Positions 15,838 to 56,025 of a stretch of 64,000 bases of DNA are shown here, in pieces. This DNA comes from the human T2T-CHM13v2.0 reference genome, Homo sapiens: the NCBI RefSeq assembly GCF_009914755.1, contig NC_060933.1; one strand, given 5' to 3'. Below the pieces are notes generated by a model. It ran no database searches and was not told the origin of the DNA. It saw nothing but the letters and a program-made list of their open reading frames with translations. Numbering within the stretch: position 1 is the first letter of the stretch; every line of letters starts with the position of its first letter. A program made the translations under genes and the position numbers.

Positions 15838-16253
15838 TAGTTGACTCTAGAACAATACAGGAGTTAGAGGCTGACCCCCCTCAAAGTGAAAAATCTGCAT
15901 ATAACTTTTGACTTTCCGAAAACTTAACTACTAATAGCTTACTGTCAACTGAAAGCCTTATCAATAACATAAACCATCAATTAACACATATTTTGTATGT
16001 TATACATAATATATATTCTCACAATAAAGCAAGCTAGAAAAAAGAAAAGGAGATCACAAGAAAGAGAAAATATATTTATTATTCATTAAGTGGAAATGGA
16101 TCATCATCAAGGTCATCATCACACTAAGCTGCGAAGCAGGAGGAGGAAGGGGAGGGGTTGGTCTTGCTGTCTTGAGAGGTGGCAGAAGTGGAAGTAAATC
16201 CACTTATAAGTGGGCCCTAGTAGTTCAAACCTGTGTTTTTCAAGGGTCAACTC
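15838..16253 (-). mobile_element. Tigger2a (MER28) DNA transposon
   Basis: Terminal inverted repeats tagttgactctagaacaa / tttttcaagggtcaactc and characteristic interior (cattaagtggaaatggatcatc, ggttggtcttgctgtct). Confidence 0.85.
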
Positions 16254-16449
16254 CATGTTCAAAAGAATTGGAGAACAGAGGCAGTGCTGGCAGCAGCAGA
16301 GCTGGGGGTAAGAGCTGATCCACTGCAGCACTGAGCCACTCATCCACTCTGGGCTAAGTCTCTCTCAGGCTCTGGCCTTTAGCCGCTGAAGGCACATTCT
16401 CACTTGGGAAGAGGATGAGGAGAAACTTGGGTCGCAACTATGTTGGTCA

Positions 16450-16826
16450 CAAATGTCTTTGCGGAATCAGCGCAGTGTCAGCAGGAAGCAGTTGAATTTG
16501 AAGGCAGATACACCTTGACTCTTCCTGCCTGCCAATGCCCTGCCTCGCAGTAGACAAGTCTCCATAGATGACCAGCCAAGCACAGAAGTGCAGTAATAGA
16601 GGGACCTGCAGTACCAACACTGCCCACACATCTATACTTCACAAGCCGGTAAAGACATCCAGTAGCTCATTGTGGATTCGTTTAGGTGCATTGAAGTTCT
16701 TAGTCCTCTAGGAGGAGATTGCACCAGTCATATGATGCTCATTCGCTTAATAAACAAAAGTGAACATCAAGATCTGTGAAGATGTTCCTAGAGCCAGCAG
16801 CAGCTTGAGAACTTGGAATGTAAGAA
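16450..16826 (+). pseudogene. Degraded MXI1 processed pseudogene, copy 1 (3' truncated in the leucine zipper)
   Basis: Frames give KSP*MTSQAQKCSNRGTCSTNTAHTS, VLSPLGGDCTSH, KVNIKICED, SQQQLENLE; compare recalled MXI1 [55 protein letters not shown]. Confidence 0.8.
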
Positions 16827-17641
16827 ACTCCCCAAAATCTGGTATTCTGGGCTCTTGACTGCACAGATAGAATTTGTCAAATTTGTTAAAAATTACAACC
16901 GTGTTGTTTACATAGAATTATTTTGACAGTTAAGTTCACCCAAATATCGATATTGTGTAAAAGTGTGTGCCCACTATAGATGTCATGATCCCCTCCTCCA
17001 AAGTTGTGTGGGCTGTCAGGACAGATCAAGTACTCCCAAGTCACCCTAGTGGAGCCCCATATTTAAAGGGAACCTCTGCTCTACTCACCCAGTGCCTCAT
17101 TCCTCCCCCTAATTCTCCTCTAATCCTACTAGAAACTAGGTTATAAACCAATCTTCTGTCACCAGCACTAGTGCAGTCCAGGCTCCCCCAAGAAGTCTGG
17201 GAGTTTGGAGTGCATCTCAACATTACGTCCAGAAACAAAGGGTGACTTTCACACTAGTTTAGCATCCCCCACGTGCAGAGTGCTGAGATGGGCCGACTGG
17301 AGAGAGGAGACTACAACTCTTAACCCTCCTGGCCTCAGGTTCTGCCTGTTCTGTGGAAAGAAGAAAAAAATAATGGTTCTGCCCCGTGCTCAAATTTGTT
17401 CCTTGCCAGTTGTGGCCTTCAGGCAAATCTCTTCTCTTCCCCGAGCCTCATGCGCCCCACAACCTTCTGAGACACAATTTAGAAAATATGAATGCTAATA
17501 GTGAGTGTAAAATCACCGCAAAGTGTTATGTGGACGTTAGTGGTTATTCTTCAACACATCTAATTGTGTTGAACTGGACTACTTTTCCAGCTTTGCCGTT
17601 ATTTTTCATAGGGTTGTTTGTTGATTTAAAAGTGTGATTCT

Positions 17642-28570: not shown

Positions 28571-29820
28571 GAAGGCAAGTTCTTTGAATAAGATTAATCT
28601 TCATTTTTATAATATTTGTACAAATGCTATTTTTGGAGGAAAAACAACCAATGTTTTTGCTCACATATTCTATTAAAAACTCTCTTCCAAAATCTGATTT
28701 CACAATTCAAACGCAGGGAAGTGGACACAGATGTCATTTATTAGAGTTTATGGCATCATTGACTCTTTGAAAGAAAGGGTTAAACTGGTTCCCAAAGCCA
28801 TTGGCTAAAGTTGAAAAAAGACCAAGAGTATGGGATAAGGCCTTGGAACACATTGTAAAATTGAAATTGTTTCCTTATTGTCTGAGGAGACAAGGAAACT
28901 ATGACAGGTATCTCTGCAGGTACTTGAAGACCACTGAAAGAAAAGTGGAGAGGGAATTTTCCATTTGTCCAAGTCATTTTTTCTCATTCAGATATTCTAA
29001 TTATTAAAAATACAAACTTGAAAATGATTCTACAAGCAAGTGGCTGTTCTTTCTTTGAATATTCCACATAATTTTCAATGATAACTTCCAATGAAGAACC
29101 TTGAAGAATTTACAAATTATCTTTTGATGTATTTTCCTTTCAAATTATGTATCTAATATGTATTGGTAATATTCTTTCCACTGGTTTTATAGTGATTACT
29201 CTTTTTCATGAATATTGGCTGAGCTCCTGAAATGATAGGGACTGGGCCAAGATGCCAGGGAAAAAGACTAGATAAGATGACGTGTCTGCCCATAAGTATC
29301 TTATGGAGTCCTGATAAAATATTCTAAAGAGAAAATAGGTCAGATCACTAAAGGCAACATCTCAGACAGCAAAAAAAGAGAAAATTATAACCATGCCTAA
29401 GGGAGAATAAGAACACTACCAGGCAAAAACATCTGACCAAGGACTCAAAATCCAAAATCACGGTTTTTTCACCTGAAGTAGCACTTTGAATATTACATGC
29501 CAAATTTTGGAAATCAAACAGAAATGGACCTCACTATCACATGGAAAATGGATGGAGATAACAAGAAGCAAATGGTCATTCATCTATTTTTTGTACAAGG
29601 AGAATCTTAAAAAATCACTGGATAAGGCGACATAATTATCACATTATTTAAGACACACTTAAAAAAATGGAAGGCCAAACGGAAGGAGTAAAGGCATAGT
29701 TTGCTCCAATTCTAGGCCTGTTTTTAGCAAGTATCTTTCCACCTATGCAAACACGTTATTTTTTTCCAACCCCATTTCTTTAGTTCTCTCCATATATTGC
29801 CCATCATGTTTGCCCGGTTT

Positions 29821-38450: not shown

Positions 38451-38824
38451 ATGTCTTTCAAATGTTATAACCTCTTTCATTTTTTTCAATGCTTTAAAAA
38501 AATTATATTCAGGTTGTTGTAAAAGTTTTATGACTTGGCTCCAAACTGTCACCTTGCCCTGGAAATCTCTATAGCCATATCTTGCATCATATCCTGGAGT
38601 TATTAACCAGTTATGTGTTCTACAGTAGTCAGGAATCAAGCAGTGGGTCTGGAGGACCAGGACAGAGAGTGAAGTTGGAGGGCAGTGAGTGCTGAGATGC
38701 CCCACCCATTCAGGTCCCTCTGTAGTGCCAAACATTACTTCCCCCTACACTCCCAACCCAGCTGAGGTGCATCTAGTTTACCTGAGAAGGGCCACAGGGA
38801 GCATGGAGAAGCACTCCAGTTCCC

Positions 38825-39517
38825 ATGGAGACTTGGCAAGGGCTAACCATGCAGCACTAGCTGGAGACAGCTAAGTTTTTAGAGCCTTGGAAGCAAGAGT
38901 GTGAATATGACCTTGTTTTGACCCCTCCTGCCAGGTGATTCATGAGCTGTGGGGGGTCCAGACCCACTGATGTCCAGTCAGGCCACAAAATGCAGTAAAT
39001 GGAAGGAGGCCTTCCCCCATACTTATGACCCAAAGAACTGGTAAAGAATGCAGGAGCTCATCTGTTCTTATGTTTAGAAGTTTCCATGTTCTGATTCCCC
39101 TAAGAGGAGACTGCACCAGACATAGGACTCTCATTTGTTTAAAAACAAACAAACAAAACAAAACAAAAAAAAACAGAATACATCACAACACAAAGAAGTT
39201 GAAAAAAAGAGGAGCTGTCTGATATCTTGGAAGGAGAATAGAGATGTTTAAAACATTGACTGCAACAGTGGCAGGTCCTCAAGAGATGGAACTACGTGAA
39301 TGAGCAGATGGAGTTAACTGTTCAGATCCTCTGATCATAGAGAGGGAGAGAAGATTGAAAGTGGATGAAGACTGAAGCACAGAGTCGTCTCACAGAGACA
39401 TGGCCAACCTCAGTGACTCCAGCATGGGAGACACTGATAGACCACAGTAGCCTGCAGAGTTTTGGAAGGGACAAGCCTTATTCTAGTGCCAGCTGCCAAC
39501 TGCTGTTTCCTCTTAAG
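38825..39517 (+). pseudogene. Degraded MXI1 processed pseudogene, copy 2 (full CDS span, followed by 3'UTR-like sequence)
   Basis: METWQGLTMQH*LETAKFLEPWKQECEYD (MXI1 MERVKMINVQRLLEAAEFLERRERECEHG), KELVKNAGAHLFLCLE, VLIPLRGDCTRHRTL, GPQEME, STESSHRDMANLS, DHSSLQSFGRDKPYSSAS (MXI1 DHSSLPSIGSDEGYSSAS); no introns. Confidence 0.9.
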
Positions 39518-40230
39518 GACCTAGCAAGTCATCACTCCACAGGGAAAATTATTCCATGAGGCCAGTGCAATCTAAGACATCTCTTAAATTTTGGTTATAA
39601 TGCAGCCTCCTTTAAAACTAAAACAAAATGAAGCAATACCTGAACAGAAGGGACATATCAGGTATTTGAGTATAATTAGAGGCAAGTAGGGCAGAGCCTT
39701 CCAAGCAGGACAGATATTAGTAATGTGCATATTTGAAGATCATAATAACTAATGATAGCAAAGACCTTTGTCAATATTCATTGAATGAAAATAGTTGAAA
39801 AATAAAACATTGGCAGTTTGATTCCCTTTGTTTTCTTTCCAGTTAGTACATTCTGCGATGAGTCAGCATATTTAGAATTTGGAACTCTTCCTGAAGATTA
39901 GAGTCCATAAAACAACAACAACAAAAAATCAAATTTAAATAAGTAACAAATTAGAACTATCAGCCATTAATGTATTATATAGCACCCTGTGACAGCCAAT
40001 TATGAAGCTAGTGATGATGAAATCTTTAGAGAATCAGACAACTACAAACAATTCATCTCTTGTTGTATAAAAGGAAACTCCAATTGTGCCTGTTAAAGGA
40101 GTTATAATGAGCTCCGCTTGCGGTGATTTCATGTGAAGCAAGCTACATCCTGTACTGATGGCACTAGGGCACCATCCCAACTCCCCAGATGGCCAAGACA
40201 CCTTGACAGGGATTATTGCCAGAGCATCTG

Positions 40231-40676
40231 GGTTATAGGGAAAAAAGTGACTGTTTTAGATGCTAATCTGCCATGTCACTCCTGATTAACCCCAAGTCTG
40301 GGAATGCCTCCAAGATATCTAGTTAATGCATTACTCTACGTAGAAACACCTATTTACTGTAAGTCTTACTTTTCCTCCATAATAAGCCTTGACGTTGCAG
40401 AAATCACAGACTGTGACACTCTTAGCATTCTCTCAGCCACCTACACCTTCCTTCCAGAGCAGATATACTTTTCCCCCAAGATATAACCCCTAGGTCTAGG
40501 GGGCTGCAGCACTGAGACCTACTTGTTTTGTTCCTACACAATGACATGTTTCTGTCTGTAAGCTCCCCAGAAAATCACCCTTTACCAACAAACTAAATTT
40601 ATCTGTCTTGTTCTTTGGTTTCTGGGCTCTTTTGGCATTTGGGGACCGCTTTGCGTATATAGCCTTTTCACAGAAT
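40231..40676 (+). mobile_element. Solo LTR (LTR47-like)
   Basis: Starts ggttatagggaaaaaagtgactg, ends ggggaccgctttgcgtatatagccttttcacagaa; absent from the paralogous cassette. Family name tentative. Confidence 0.55.
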
Positions 40677-42587
40677 GGGGTCTTTGCACATGTTGACTGA
40701 ACGTGCAGTCTGGGGACAGTGGAAAAAGCTCCATGTGACTCTGTGTGGGTCATACATGTTTGTGCACACAGGTAGGCAGGCCAACAACTTGGCAATGACA
40801 GGATTTTATTTCCTGATTTTGGTAAATGTTTGTAAACTAAAAATTACATCTTTTAAATCTTAAGAAACAGAAACACTGTAGAAGCAAGAGGTTGAAAATA
40901 TCATCCATTTTGATGCCAACAATTGACAATCCTAGATAGCCAAAGACAGCCTTACTAAGCAATGTGGCTGCTTTTGGAGTCAAAGGAAGACTCACTTTGG
41001 TAAGTAGCCTTTTGAAAGCATTCACTGCTGTGGTGTGGGAAGTGCATAATGTTTTTCCATCTTGCTCATACAAAATATTTTTTTTTGGCACTTACAGCTC
41101 AACTGTTGGATAAAAAGATAAAGAGAAGAAAAGGATCTTCAGTGGGTTCATCAGTAGACAACACAAAGTCCAGTCTGACCAGGTGGGAAGAAACTGATTT
41201 GTCATCCTTGGGAATGAGAACAGCATTAAAATGGAAAATATTAGGTGCTTTTTGCTTATTCAAGACAACTCAAGAGTCAAAAATAAATAGGCCTCTAGGA
41301 GTACGCATTTAATGGGTTCTTAAAGTGGTCTAAATATATTTCATTTAAGAAATCGCTCATTAATTTTTAGACTTTTTTATTGGCAGAAAAATCTGCTGCC
41401 TTATATCCATTTAGATGGTCTTTTGTTTACTTTTACGAAAAACTTAAAAGTCAGTCAGTTCAATTCACTCATAGCACACCTACTCTTGCCCTATAAAACA
41501 ATAGACAGCAACACATGGGCATTTGAAGTGGAACCCAGAATCCCTTGACAACTTACCCTCCCTGCTCTTCTTATTTCATGCTATGGCCTCTCCTTGGTTC
41601 ATGAATCTCATGTCCAGTTCTGTTTTTTTAATGGACTCCTCCAGACTCACTATTATCTCAGTTTGCCCTGTGGTTTTGACCTTAGGTCTTTGTTCTATTC
41701 CTTCAGATTTATATTTCTCTCCAGACAGTTATAAAAATGAGTGTAATCCAAACATGGTTATTGGGTTAACAGTTTTAATGATCTTAAAACAGTCACAGGC
41801 CTATAGTTATAATGCAATAATTTTGGTGTTATCTTTTAAAAAAATCATCATTGTTATAACACAACTAGGAGCAGAATCTTTTGGGAAATCAAATTCTGTT
41901 TCTTTGCAGGTTTCTAAATGCCATCTTTTCATTTCCTGGGTGGATTTTTTAACTAGGTACGGTGCTAAGGCAAGGCTAATATTCATTATCATGCCAGAGA
42001 GGACTAGTGTTCTAGCAACTGGGGTCTTGTTGCCAGTCTACTGTGAGTTGGTTGGTGTGACTCCTCCTTTCTTAGCTCAGAGGTGATAACATCTGCATTC
42101 AATGAAAGAAGAGCAGGTGGCTGGTCTTGCAAAGCTGAGGACAATCCATTGACCCAGGAGTTGCTCTTCTGTGAGGCTCTGGCAGAAGCAGCCGTTTCCC
42201 TTGCTTTTGTGTACCTCAACAATGACATTCATCCTTCCCCTGGGACAGAGTCCCTAGTCTCTAATTTTGCTGCACTGAATTTTGCTAACATATGTTTTGC
42301 TATTTTGTCAGCAGAAAGTCACTTCTCTTACTTCCTGATATTCAGGCTTATATTTGTTTTGTTTTTAATATATAAGCAATTGTTGAGGTTTGCTTTCTAG
42401 GAAAGTTGAAATGAGAGACAAAAAATCTGAAATCTTGAAAATTATGGAGAAGAACAATATGGTTCCTTTGCCTTTCTTTTACTTTTCTTTATTTGTTTTA
42501 ATTCATCATAAATAAGAATATCATGTAGGAGAAGCAAGATATACCTTACCCAGTAAACCACTATGTGAAAAGAAGTTACAAAAATTC

Positions 42588-44403: not shown

Positions 44404-44987
44404 GTGGCCTGCCTTCACTCTCTAGTGGTGGTCCTAGTTGTGTGCAGCTGTGGCTCTTTTTGATCTCTGGGATGTGACCTGACTCAGAACCATGGTCTGA
44501 CAGGAAGGAAGACGTTGGTGCTTCTGGGCCAAATGAAATGGATCTCCCCTTTCTTGTGTCTCAAGGACAGAAGAGACTTCAGGTTTCCCCTGGAGATGTG
44601 TATGACAGCCAGTTGCAGCAGGCCCAGGCCCTGTCTGTCCTCCATGAGATGCTGCAGCAGATCTTCAGCCTCTTCCACACAGAGCGCTCCTCTGCTGCCT
44701 GGAACACGACCCTCCTGGACCAACTCCACACTGGACTTCATCAGCAGCTGGAACACCTGGAGACCTGCTTGGTGCGGGCAGTGGGAGAGGGAGAATCTGC
44801 TGGGTGATTGGGAGCTCTACACTGGCCTTGAGAAGGTACTTCCAGAGAATCTGTCTCTACCTGAAAGAGAAGAAACAGTGACTGTGCCTGGGAAGTTGTC
44901 AGAGTGGAAATCATGAGATCCTTCTCTATATCAACAAACTCACAGGAAAGATTGAGAAGTAAGAATGGAGACATGGAGTCATCTTAA
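44404..44987 (+). pseudogene. IFNWP2: Interferon-omega pseudogene
   Basis: GTG start, [91 protein letters not shown]; omega-specific C-terminal extension; several frameshifts and stops. Confidence 0.92.
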
Positions 44988-53587: not shown

Positions 53588-54177
53588 AATTGCTGAAGTA
53601 GTAGGAAAGGGCCTCAATTTAGAAGGAATTTCACAAATCTTTGCTCAGTTATACACTCAACCTTTAGATTGCTCTTTGTAAGTGGGAGAGGAGAGGGATT
53701 GGAGAACTCAGTTATATTTAGCCACATATTTTTCACTTTCCTGTCTTTTTTTCTCCCCAGTTTAAGAGCATAGAAAAACATTAAAAATTTTGAATTTACC
53801 TGGTCCTCTCTCTCTCTCCCTGTCTTAGTGATTGCTTTACACTTTTCAGATATTACTATCTCTTCTATTCTTTTATTGATTTTTATGCTGCGGATTTCTT
53901 TAGTGTGGTTTTACTTTTTATTGTTTCTAATGTTATGTTCAGTCAGCAGAAATTATATTATATGGCTCTGCATTTTCATCTTACCCTGAAAAATCTCTGT
54001 AATCATATCCTGATCATATCCAGAGTTAATTTTTTGTGAATCCTAAAGTAATGGAGAACTGAAGCGAGGGGGTGGCAGAGTTGGCAGTGAGGGCTCTATC
54101 ACAGGCTGCCCTGCACAGGTGCCTGGGAAGCACCCCTCAAGAGGGACACATGGAGCCTTGATTCTTTCCCTGGATCC

Positions 54178-54796
54178 CTGGAGGAGTAACAAATATCGTG
54201 GTGCAGCACTGGAGACACTGAGGCTTTGTCAGGTCAGGGAGTGAGAGTGTGAATGTGGCCATGCCTGAACTCTCCCTGCCTGCCAAGCTCAGGACTGCAG
54301 ACGTCAAGGATGTCCCACTGGGCACAGAAACACTGAATAGAGGGGGTCCTGCCCACAGACTATACCCAATGAGCTGGTAAAGAATCCAGGAGCAAATCTG
54401 TCCCTGTTTAGGCACTCTTATGTTTTAATTCTCCTAGGAGGAGACTGCACAAGGCTCAGGACTCTCATTTGTTCAAAAAAGCAGAGCCCACGTGCAATAT
54501 GAAGAAGTTGAAAGAACCAGCCACAGCTTGAGAACATGGAAGGAGAACAGAGACTGGAACAGCAACAGGTCCTCAGGAGATGGAACACTTCCAATGAGAG
54601 CATGAAGTCAACTGTTCAGATTATTCTAATTAGAGGGAGAGAAGATTGAAGTGGATGCTGAGAGCAGAGTTCTCCTATGGAGATGTGGCCAACATCAGCG
54701 TCCCAGGGTGGATGACACTGATGCCACAGGAGCCTGTAGTTTACTGGAAAGGATGAGGTATTTGACTACCTGCTGCCTCTTGTGGTTTCTTCCTTG
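54178..54796 (+). pseudogene. Degraded MXI1 processed pseudogene, copy 3
   Basis: RE*ECECGHA, NELVKNPGANLSL, VLILLGGDCTRLRTL, QLENMEGEQRLEQ, GPQEME, EKIEVDAES, EFSYGDVANIS; 3'UTR-like continuation paralogous to 39520 onward. Confidence 0.85.
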
Positions 54797-55444
54797 GAGC
54801 CAACAAGTCATTCCACTGCAGGGAAAATTTTTCATGGGGCCAATGCAATCAAAGGAAACTGTTAAATTTAGGTCTTGATACAGCTTCCCTTGAAAACAAA
54901 ACAAATGAAATAATATTTGAGCAGAAGATATACAGGTAGGTATTTGAATACATTTAGCAACAATTGGAGCAGAGCTTTCCCAGCAAGACAGATACTAGTA
55001 ATGTGGGTATTTGGTGATCACAACTGCTAATAGCAGCAAAGACCTTTATTAAAATTTATTTAACTCAATTGAAAATAGATCATTGGTGGCTCAATTCTTT
55101 TTTTTTTCCCAGTGGGTGCCTTCTACACTTGGTTGGCACATTTAAAGTGCCTACTTTCCACTTCCTGAGGATTAGGTTCCAAAGAACATGTTTGGTAAAA
55201 TAATAATGCTTTTATCATTTTATCAATTAGTGCTGATTTTAATGATATGTTTATTTCAATACTACAATTTTATTTTATGATTTTTAATAAGATGAGTTTA
55301 TAAATTAAATAAAAACCACCATATTAGGTAGGTGGGCTGAGTTTGGCATTAACGCCAAACTCATTGGTAAGCTGCCCTTTAAAAGCATTCACTGCCTCAG
55401 TGCAGGAAATGGAAAATATTTTTCCATCTTGGTCATACAAAACA

Positions 55445-56025
55445 TCTGGTGGCATGATGCCTCCAGCTGTTCTTTTTGCTCAGGATCATTTTTTCTATTC
55501 GAAGTCTTTTATGGTTCCATACAAATTTTAGTATATTGTTTACAATTTCTATGAAGAATCATTGGTACTTTCATAGGGATTGCATTGAATCTGTAGATTG
55601 CTTTGGGTAATATAGACATTTAATGATACTAATTCTTTCAATCCATGAGCATGGGATATCTTTCCATTTGTTTGTATTTTTCTCAATTTCTTTCATTAGT
55701 GTTTTATAGTTTTCCTTGTAGAGCTCTTTAATCTTGTTGGTTAAATGTACTCCTAGGTATTTTATTGTATTTGCAGCTGTTGTCAATGGGATTGCCTTCT
55801 GGATTTCTTTTTTAGCTAGTTCATTGCTTGTATATAGAAATGTGATGGATTTTGTATGTTAATTTTGTATCTTGCAATTTTTCTGCATTAGTTTATCAGT
55901 TCTAAGAGTTTTTTGGTAGAGCCTCTCCAAAGAGCCTCTCTTTGGTAGGTTTTTCTACATATAAGAACATATTGTCTGCAGACAGAGACAATTTGACTTC
56001 CTCCTTTCCAGTTTGGATGCCCTGT
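55445..56025 (-). mobile_element. L1 ORF2 fragment
   Basis: ORF-track IKYLGVHLTNKIKELYKENYKTLMKEIE...WKDIPCSWIERI; interrupts cassette copy B. Confidence 0.85.

What the first reader, a model, noticed from the sequence alone, without database searches (positions are those of the whole stretch)
38825..39517. Hidden family of MXI1 retrocopies embedded in the interferon cluster
Seen: three colinear, intron-less, heavily decayed segments (about 16450-16826, 38825-39517, 54178-54796, all plus strand). Stitched across frames, copy 2 runs from ATG to the former stop and follows the recalled MXI1 protein: Sin3-interaction helix (LETAKFLE vs LEAAEFLE), basic region (ELVKNAGAHLFLCLE vs ELEKNRRAHLRLCLE), loop (IPLRGDCTRH vs IPLGPDCTRH), zipper end (GPQEME) and C-terminus (DHSSLQSFGRDKPYSSAS vs DHSSLPSIGSDEGYSSAS). 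The N-terminus matches the MERVKMINVQ isoform. An AAAAC-like tract follows near 39613 and 54892, as I recall for the MXI1 3'UTR. I do not recall MXI1 pseudogenes being annotated here, but cannot check. The ORF track shows only fragments, so this is easily missed.
Basis: partly seen in the sequence, partly recalled or inferred. Interest (0 to 1): 0.85.

Follow-up and report, generated by a model that had tools for sequence, protein, structure and literature searches.

The report
Decayed MXI1 pseudogene copies among interferon genes
An ancient, intron-less and long-dead copy of the MXI1 gene landed in the interferon gene cluster and was then copied eight times along with the interferon genes, which makes it an ordinary genomic fossil but a handy neutral marker of how that cluster grew.

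Summary
I spliced the MXI1 mRNA from the chr10 gene. It aligns in single, intron-less alignments across all five exon junctions to window 16312-16821, 38752-41073 and 54176-55495 (E 1e-29 to 1e-130).

The parent is MXI1, not MXD1, MXD3 or MXD4: 8 of 8 copies are closest to MXI1. The UTRs also match.

Five more copies lie outside the window. All eight sit on chr9 between IFNA14 and IFNWP19. Genome-wide searches found nothing else except the parent.

The copies share flanking homology and six frameshifting deletions. This points to one retroposition that was already dead and was then spread by the segmental duplications that built the IFNA/IFNW array.

The copies diverge like their flanks. No RefSeq feature overlaps them. 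No poly(A) tail or target-site duplication survives.

Verdict: a real but ordinary set of unannotated processed-pseudogene relics. Their main use is as a neutral clock for cluster history. I could not check GENCODE or retrocopy catalogues.

The parts
16312..16821 (+). Copy 1 (c1): a truncated MXI1 processed-pseudogene relic covering mRNA positions 13-555 (5'UTR to exon 5). It is the earliest-branching copy.
   Evidence: nhmmer E 1.5e-31; blastn core 16494-16820, E 1e-29. Matches copies D, E and A in a genome-wide search. It retains 8 nt (mRNA 335-342) that the other 7 copies have lost. Sister to the rest with support 86.
38752..38824 (+). Copy 2 (c2): remnant of the MXI1 5'UTR.
   Evidence: blastn alignment starts at mRNA 75, where the ATG is mRNA 151. 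Match to sequence upstream of exon 1.
38825..39517 (+). Copy 2: the former coding sequence, from the ATG-equivalent to the stop-equivalent, crossing all five exon junctions. It has 17 indel events (16 not a multiple of 3) and 4 stop triplets at MXI1 codon positions.
   Evidence: tblastn E 6e-10 / 7e-9.
39141..39175 (+). AAAAC microsatellite that grew inside the former exon 4 of copy 2 only.
   Evidence: Tandem Repeats Finder, period 5, 7.2 copies. The insertion is seen only in c2 in the alignment.
39518..40187 (+). Copy 2: proximal 3'UTR remnant (mRNA 838-1542), including the AAAAC-rich tract near 39613.
40698..41073 (+). Copy 2: distal 3'UTR remnants (mRNA 1607-1887, then 2459-2581). They follow a 510-bp stretch (40188-40697) that does not align to MXI1.
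   Evidence: blastn E 4e-16 and 1e-5; nhmmer E 9e-18 and 4e-6. The genome-wide search with the MXI1 last exon hit chr9:21430721-21430862.
54176..55188 (+). Copy 3 (c3): mRNA 149-1243. The former coding sequence is 54178-54796. It has 26 indel events (24 not a multiple of 3) and 5 stop triplets.
   Evidence: blastn E 2e-110; nhmmer E 3e-104.
55197..55495 (+). Copy 3: distal 3'UTR remnant (mRNA 2346-2633). It follows a roughly 1.1-kb internal deletion that copies A and C share.
   Evidence: blastn E 5e-23; nhmmer E 1e-15.

Best explanation
A single MXI1 mRNA was reverse-transcribed and inserted into the ancestral type I interferon cluster. The transcript began at the exon encoding MERVKMINVQ, with about 157 nt of 5'UTR and at least 1.7 kb of 3'UTR. 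The insertion presumably used the LINE-1 machinery; that step is inferred.

The insert had no function and accumulated frameshifts as a single-copy pseudogene. The segmental duplications, tandem and inverted, that built the IFNA/IFNW array then copied it passively. The result is eight relics on chr9 between IFNA14 and IFNWP19. Three are in this window.

The copies fall into two position classes:
- One clade (c2, B, D, E) lies 4-12 kb downstream of an IFNA gene.
- The other clade (c3, C, A) lies 9-10 kb upstream of an IFNA gene.
- c1 branches first.
Seven of the eight have the same orientation as the neighbouring IFNA gene. c1 (+) lies between IFNA2 and IFNA11P, which are both on the minus strand.

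The youngest split is D/E. It goes with the inverted IFNA13/IFNA1 duplication. Today the copies do nothing and drift at the same rate as their flanks.
For: Processed origin:
- Single blastn and nhmmer alignments of the spliced mRNA run across all five junctions in 7 copies, and across junctions 2-4 in the truncated c1.

Parent is MXI1:
- The MXI1 last exon with its 3'UTR hits only chr10 and the chr9 cluster genome-wide.
- Copy A's 850-nt core gave 10 matches: itself, the 7 other copies (copy B in two pieces) and the MXI1 last exon (E 3.5e-39), with nothing else.
- In the HLH exon, 8 of 8 copies are closer to MXI1 (0.62-0.73) than to MXD1 (0.46-0.55), MXD4 (0.42-0.50) or MXD3 (0.35-0.46). Gene names were checked against RefSeq coordinates.

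One insertion, then duplication:
- Pairwise alignments run more than 1 kb beyond the retrocopy, for example C-c3 at -1227..+1345 and c2-c3 downstream to +5409.
- Frameshifting deletions at mRNA 255, 415 and 522-525 are shared by 8 of 8 copies. Those at 594, 614 and 644-647 are shared by 7 of 7 covering copies.
- In 66 of 626 coding columns, all or all but one of the copies share one base that differs from MXI1.

Tree and dead status:
- ML tree: stem 0.225, root-to-tip 0.25-0.30, clades supported 98 and 100.
- Each copy has 10-26 indel events in the coding sequence and 3-6 stop triplets.
- The copy 2 ORF pieces no longer hit Pfam HLH, while the parent exon does (E 1.5e-6).

Neutral drift:
- K2P of the retrocopy against its upstream flank is 0.24-0.31 vs 0.20-0.27 within a clade, and 0.37-0.40 vs 0.44-0.50 between clades.
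- No RefSeq enhancer, silencer or transcript overlaps any copy. The only exception is an intron of lncRNA LOC107987053 over copy C.
Against: - No poly(A) tail and no target-site duplication can be recognised.
- Homology to the mRNA stops at about position 2582-2633, roughly 600 nt short of the annotated gene end, and no polyadenylation signal lies just upstream. The 3' end of the source transcript is therefore unexplained. The 'processed' call rests on intron loss alone.
- mRNA 1888-2312 is missing from every copy. This could be a stem deletion or later gain in the MXI1 3'UTR.
- For the D-E pair, flank K2P (0.14) exceeds retrocopy K2P (0.05). This is probably an alignment effect of indels, but I did not resolve it.
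- The copy count is a lower bound. The genome search scores only the best candidates and hides closed regions.
Confidence: 0.93

Rival explanations
1. Several independent retropositions of MXI1 mRNA hit the interferon cluster, making it a retroposition hot spot.
For: All eight copies are confined to 200 kb.
Against: Flanks are homologous on both sides of the copies. Six frameshifting deletions and 66 of 626 coding columns are shared derived states. Copy-to-copy distances match flank distances. Independent insertions would share none of these.
Confidence: 0.02
2. The copies derive from another MAX-dimerisation paralogue (MXD1, MXD3, MXD4), or from the shared ancestor of these genes.
For: The HLH exon is conserved among the paralogues, at 57-66% DNA identity to MXI1. 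A decayed copy could therefore be mis-assigned from peptides alone.
Against: 8 of 8 copies are nearer to MXI1 in that exon. Homology continues through the MXI1-specific 5'UTR and through about 1.7 kb of 3'UTR. The reciprocal genome-wide search returns MXI1 only.
Confidence: 0.01
3. The retrocopy, or some of its duplicates, was or is functional. It could be a retrogene early on, or today a non-coding RNA or regulatory element co-opted by the interferon cluster.
For: The copies keep a regular spacing and, for seven of the eight, the same orientation as the neighbouring IFNA gene (coordinates). Copy C lies inside a lncRNA intron.
Against: At least six frameshifts predate the first duplication. 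Divergence equals that of the flanks. No RefSeq functional element overlaps any copy. The regular spacing is what block duplication gives without any function.
Confidence: 0.04

Closest known systems
Processed pseudogenes (retrocopies) of human protein-coding genes made by LINE-1 machinery
   Same: Intron-less and colinear with the parent mRNA including its UTRs. On a different chromosome from the parent. Riddled with frameshifts and stops, and drifting neutrally.
   Different: Very old, at about 65-69% identity to the parent. It has no surviving poly(A) tail or target-site duplication. Its 3' end does not coincide with the annotated MXI1 poly(A) site.
Pseudogenes multiplied by segmental duplication inside tandem gene arrays (here the IFNA/IFNW array, with IFNWP and IFNA pseudogenes)
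   Same: Copy number rose by DNA-level block duplication, tandem and inverted, together with the neighbouring interferon genes. Flanks are shared.
   Different: The amplified passenger is unrelated to the array's own gene family. It apparently escaped the gene conversion that homogenises the IFNA genes. It therefore records block ages more faithfully than the IFNA coding regions do.
KLHL9, the known intronless non-interferon gene inside the mammalian type I IFN locus
   Same: A non-interferon, intron-less sequence embedded in the locus. Walker and Roberts 2009 (PMC2680415, passages read) call it the only non-IFN gene detectable in the bovine sub-loci.
   Different: KLHL9 is intact, functional and single-copy. 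The MXI1 relic is dead and eight-fold duplicated.

Membership tests
Processed pseudogene of MXI1 | Significant homology to the parent mRNA in coding sequence and UTRs | tested here: met
   blastn E 1e-29 to 1e-130. nhmmer E 1e-31 to 1e-122. 5'UTR match. 3'UTR matches. Reversed-protein control best E 0.25.
Processed pseudogene of MXI1 | All introns absent: continuity across exon-exon junctions | tested here: met
   The five junctions (mRNA 223, 356, 386, 501, 673) are crossed without insertions in 7 copies. Junctions 2-4 are crossed in the truncated c1.
Processed pseudogene of MXI1 | Poly(A) tail at the 3' end | tested here: not met
   No A-run at the end of homology (mRNA ~2582-2633) in the six copies inspected: c3, C, A, D, c2 and E. 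A profile of three copy ends stops at mRNA 2582. At this age a tail is expected to have decayed, so this does not exclude membership.
Processed pseudogene of MXI1 | Target-site duplications flanking the insert | tested here: inconclusive
   The boundaries were inspected by eye only. With about 35% divergence a 10-15-bp duplication is not recoverable.
Processed pseudogene of MXI1 | Parent is MXI1 rather than a paralogue | tested here: met
   8 of 8 copies are closest to MXI1 in the HLH exon. The reciprocal genome-wide hit is MXI1 only.
Processed pseudogene of MXI1 | Disabled reading frame | tested here: met
   Per copy, 9-24 indel events that are not a multiple of 3, and 3-6 stop triplets at MXI1 codon positions. 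The copy 2 ORF pieces do not hit Pfam HLH.
Segmentally duplicated pseudogene family | Homology extends into the flanks on both sides, and there are shared derived mutations | tested here: met
   Flank alignments run to -1.3 kb and +5.4 kb. Six shared frameshift deletions. Flank and copy divergence are alike.
Interspersed repeat family (rival) | Many dispersed copies genome-wide | tested here: not met
   Only the eight chr9 copies plus the chr10 parent were found. Matches in closed regions are not shown.

The most novel reading that the evidence does not exclude
The eight MXI1 relics form a gene-conversion-free neutral clock interleaved with the IFNA/IFNW genes.

Their depth is 0.25-0.30 substitutions per site root-to-tip, after a stem that already carried six frameshifts. 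If this is read at the usual human-lineage neutral rate, the block architecture of the distal half of the human interferon cluster (IFNA14 to IFNWP19) was laid down at or before the radiation of placental mammals.

The IFNA genes would then look roughly half as old only because gene conversion keeps homogenising them. The figures are synonymous distance 0.19-0.25 against 0.35-0.45 for the relics, and 0.013 against 0.05 for the IFNA1/IFNA13 pair.

If so, orthologous Mxi1 relics bearing the same frameshifts should sit in the interferon clusters of other placental orders, and they could be used to sort true orthology of IFNA blocks.
Probability: 0.45. Interest if true: 0.45.

Novelty: new member of a known kind. 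Interest (0 to 1): 0.3.

Why it matters
By itself it matters little. It is one more ancient processed pseudogene that RefSeq leaves unannotated.

Its use is as a marker. IFNA genes cluster by species in trees, and it has long been argued whether this reflects independent duplications or gene conversion. Passages in PMC2680415 and PMC3342878 describe both views. A dead passenger sequence sits between the genes, was duplicated with each block, and apparently lies outside the conversion tracts. It gives an independent estimate of block ages and block orthology.

Here it already shows two things. The blocks are about twice as diverged as the synonymous sites of the IFNA genes they carry. The IFNA1/IFNA13 arms are about four times as diverged (K2P 0.05) as the genes (dS 0.013). 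The second result fits the published conversion of IFNA1 by IFNA13 (PMC3342878).

Tried and rejected
Steps that led nowhere or were rejected:

1. Direct blastn and tblastx of copy 2 against the unspliced 82-kb MXI1 gene gave colinear exon hits but missed exons 2 and 3. An 8-residue hit in an intron (gene position 44653) was chance. I replaced this with the spliced mRNA.

2. One search used coordinates off by 1000 and returned only Alu-like hits from an MXI1 intron. One search corrected it.

3. A weak mRNA match at window 29041-29190 (E 7e-4) found no support from copy-to-copy comparison. I do not count it as a copy.

4. Searches with whole copy A and whole copy B were swamped by interspersed repeats inserted in them. 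The repeat-free core of A gave the clean list.

5. I looked for an unannotated IFNW or IFNA remnant downstream of copy 3 and found none.

6. A profile of three copy 3' ends did not extend homology beyond mRNA 2582. The 3' end stays undefined.

7. The RefSeq 'masked_repeat' list does not flag any copy. It also fails to flag the ~430-bp repeat inside copy B, so it is weak evidence.

8. Scripts (strand and regex mistakes; thread error) were redone.

9. Literature:
- 'MXI1P1' found 0 papers.
- MXI1 + retrocop found 1 paper, and MXI1 + 'processed pseudogene' found 1 paper. Both are irrelevant on reading the passages.
- MXI1 + pseudogene + interferon found 30 papers. I saw only the listing of 15, and none is on topic by title.
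- Two broader searches listed nothing on topic.
- Woelk 2007 is not held.
- Supplementary retrocopy tables are closed and may list these copies.

10. Substitution-rate yardsticks used for dating are recalled, not taken from any call.

Full report
**What is there.**

The window is chr9:21390001-21454000 of T2T-CHM13, in the type I interferon cluster. I read 38600-39800 and listed its ORFs.

A genome-wide DNA search with window 38780-39700 found seven other places. All are on chr9 between 21.26 and 21.47 Mb, at 69-75% identity, and none is elsewhere. RefSeq's gene table holds one gene with MXI1 in its name or description: the parent at chr10:111091474-111171229.

**Building the parent mRNA.**

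- I fetched the 82-kb MXI1 region in nine pieces.
- blastn and tblastx of copy 2 against it gave colinear hits at four to five separate exons. These included the exon that encodes MERVKMINVQ and 425 nt of the last exon with its 3'UTR (71% identity, E 1e-49).
- I located all six exons by open frame and GT-AG borders.
- I joined them in a script into an mRNA with a 228-codon frame. It holds 150 nt of 5'UTR, coding sequence at 151-837, and 3'UTR to the annotated gene end.
- Exon ends fall at mRNA 223, 356, 386, 501 and 673.
- Exon 4 of the parent hits Pfam HLH (E 1.5e-6, above the cut-off).

blastn of the spliced mRNA against the window and the fetched loci gave one long alignment per copy across the junctions:

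| Copy | Position | mRNA span | E-value |
|---|---|---|---|
| c1 | window 16494-16820 | 223-554 | 1e-29 |
| c2 | window 38752-40187 | 75-1542 | 1.6e-130 |
| c3 | window 54176-55188 | 149-1243 | 2e-110 |
| five copies outside the window | see list below | — | 1e-58 to 1e-122 |

- nhmmer agreed and extended c1 to 16312-16821 (mRNA 13-555).
- The printed alignment shows no inserted sequence at any junction.
- The MXI1 start and stop map to 38825 and 39515-39517 in c2, and to 54178 and 54794-54796 in c3.
- The AAAAC tracts near 39613 and 54892 align with an AAAAC-rich stretch of the MXI1 3'UTR.
- tblastn with the spliced protein gave E 1e-6 to 1e-13. The reversed protein gave 2 hits, best E 0.25.
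- More 3'UTR follows: c2 at 40698-40947 and 40940-41073, and c3 at 55197-55495.

**Which parent.**

- The MXI1 last exon plus 3'UTR hits only chr10 and the chr9 cluster genome-wide.
- The repeat-free core of copy A gave 10 matches: itself, the seven other copies (copy B in two pieces) and the MXI1 last exon (E 3.5e-39). Nothing else matched.
- A search with the 38-residue HLH exon located the homologous exons of three paralogues. RefSeq coordinates name them MXD1, MXD4 and MXD3.
- Over that exon, identity of the copies was as follows:

| Gene | Identity of the 8 copies |
|---|---|
| MXI1 | 0.62-0.73 |
| MXD1 | 0.46-0.55 |
| MXD4 | 0.42-0.50 |
| MXD3 | 0.35-0.46 |

- MXI1 is therefore closest in 8 of 8 copies.
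- Homology also runs about 157 nt upstream of the ATG into the MXI1 5'UTR.

**One insertion, then duplication.**

- Pairwise blastn of the loci shows alignments that run well beyond the retrocopy. Examples are C-c3 from -1227 to +1345, A-D from -1251, and c2-c3 downstream to +5409. Even c1 shares upstream flank with A, C, D and E.
- Relative to the intact MXI1 frame, deletions at mRNA 255 (1 nt), 415 (1 nt) and 522-525 (4 nt) are present in 8 of 8 copies.
- Deletions at 594, 614 and 644-647 are present in 7 of 7 copies that cover those sites.
- In 66 of 626 coding columns, all or all but one of the copies share one base that differs from MXI1.
- The copy was therefore already a dead pseudogene before it was first duplicated.
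- c1 alone keeps 8 nt (mRNA 335-342) that the other seven lost. This fits its position as sister to the rest in the ML tree.

**Tree and distances.**

- Identity to MXI1 is 0.65-0.69 (K2P 0.40-0.49).
- Between copies, identity is 0.56-0.80, except D-E at 0.96 (K2P 0.05).
- I ran IQ-TREE (GTR+G4, 1035 columns, MXI1 as outgroup). It gives:
  - stem 0.225;
  - c1 first (support 86);
  - clade 1 = c2, B, (D,E) with support 98;
  - clade 2 = c3, (C,A) with support 100;
  - root-to-tip 0.25-0.30.
- Retrocopy and upstream-flank distances are alike: 0.24-0.31 vs 0.20-0.27 within clade 2, and 0.37-0.40 vs 0.44-0.50 between clades. D-E is the exception, at 0.05 vs 0.14.
- I read this as neutral drift since duplication.

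**Where the copies sit.**

I worked these positions out by hand.

- A: chr9:21264149-21265756 (-), 10.3 kb upstream of IFNA14.
- B: 21278082-21279873 (-), 12 kb downstream of IFNA22P.
- C: 21329923-21331268 (-), 10.4 kb upstream of IFNA5.
- D: 21375042-21376686 (-), 4.9 kb downstream of IFNA13.
- c1: 21406312-21406821 (+), between IFNA2 and IFNA11P.
- c2: 4.4 kb downstream of IFNA8 and 3.1 kb upstream of IFNWP2.
- c3: 9 kb downstream of IFNWP2 and 9.1 kb upstream of IFNA1.
- E: 21463446-21465092 (+), 8 kb downstream of IFNA1 and 4.5 kb upstream of IFNWP19.

Clade 1 copies lie downstream of an IFNA gene, and clade 2 copies lie about 9-10 kb upstream of one. All are in the gene's orientation except c1. 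No copy was found in the IFNB1-IFNA14 half, within the sensitivity.

**What is missing.**

- Homology ends at mRNA ~2582-2633, about 600 nt before the annotated gene end. There is no A-run and no recognisable target-site duplication.
- The nearest upstream AATAAA is at mRNA 2458, which is too far away.
- mRNA 1888-2312 is absent from all copies.
- Clade 2 shares a roughly 1.1-kb 3'UTR deletion, and D/E share a larger one.
- No RefSeq transcript, enhancer or silencer overlaps any copy. The exception is a lncRNA intron over C.

**Comparison with the interferon genes.**

Nei-Gojobori synonymous distances are as follows:

| Pair | dS |
|---|---|
| IFNA2-IFNA8 | 0.25 |
| IFNA2-IFNA1 | 0.19 |
| IFNA8-IFNA1 | 0.22 |
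| IFNA1-IFNA13 | 0.013 |

- The relics that belong to these blocks differ by 0.35-0.45. The D/E pair beside IFNA13/IFNA1 differs by 0.05.
- Passages in PMC2680415 review the duplication-versus-conversion argument and name KLHL9 as the only non-IFN gene seen in the bovine locus.
- The relics thus behave as markers outside the conversion tracts.
- This comparison is only suggestive. K2P on formerly coding, CpG-containing sequence and dS are not the same measure.

**Dating (inference).**

My recalled yardstick is about 0.17 neutral substitutions per site on the human lineage since the human-mouse ancestor. This is recalled from the mouse genome paper and was not seen here.

Against that yardstick:
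- A crown depth of 0.25-0.30 puts the first duplication at or before the placental radiation, and the insertion earlier still.
- The D/E split (0.025 per branch) falls roughly among catarrhine primates.

Saturation, CpG decay and alignment error all inflate such figures. Only a search of other mammals can settle it, and the tools here do not reach them.

**Novelty.**

- RefSeq does not annotate the copies.
- In the searchable library I found no paper on MXI1 pseudogenes.
- GENCODE, the pseudogene and retrocopy databases, and paper supplements were out of reach.
- The kind of object is thoroughly known: a processed pseudogene multiplied by segmental duplication.
- I file it as a new member of a known kind, with low to moderate interest. 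Its value is as a neutral clock for the interferon cluster.

Noticed in passing
L005 (chr9:21264584-21264920, inside copy A): A ~320-bp insertion in the 3'UTR part of copy A matches many dispersed loci at 85-89% identity. It coincides with a RefSeq masked repeat. It looks like an Alu; the name is recalled and was not tested.
   Followed up: partly
L007 about 857-1289 (chr9:~21278505-21278937, inside copy B): A ~430-bp interspersed repeat is inserted in copy B, with 86-90% identity to many loci. It is not in the RefSeq masked-repeat list, so that list is incomplete.
   Followed up: no
window 55476-55680: The sequence directly after the end of copy 3 looks like the 3' part of a LINE-1 element. 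This was seen by eye, the name is recalled, and it was not tested or compared.
   Followed up: no
window 40188-40697: A 510-bp stretch inside copy 2's 3'UTR does not align to MXI1, while only 64 nt of the mRNA are skipped. It is probably an insertion of unknown kind.
   Followed up: no
window 29041-29190: A weak match to MXI1 mRNA 2288-2422 (E 7e-4) has no support from the other copies. It is probably chance.
   Followed up: yes
L025 and L026 (IFNA1, IFNA13): In both genes the longest open frame starts about 50 codons upstream of the interferon signal peptide, at an in-frame ATG (720-nt ORF). The two 1.1-kb pieces are 97.8% identical overall and 99.2% identical in the ORF.
   Followed up: no
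window 16200-16260: The first ~55 nt of the query window 16200-16900 match dozens of dispersed loci at 85-93%. This is the edge of an interspersed repeat just upstream of copy 1.
   Followed up: no
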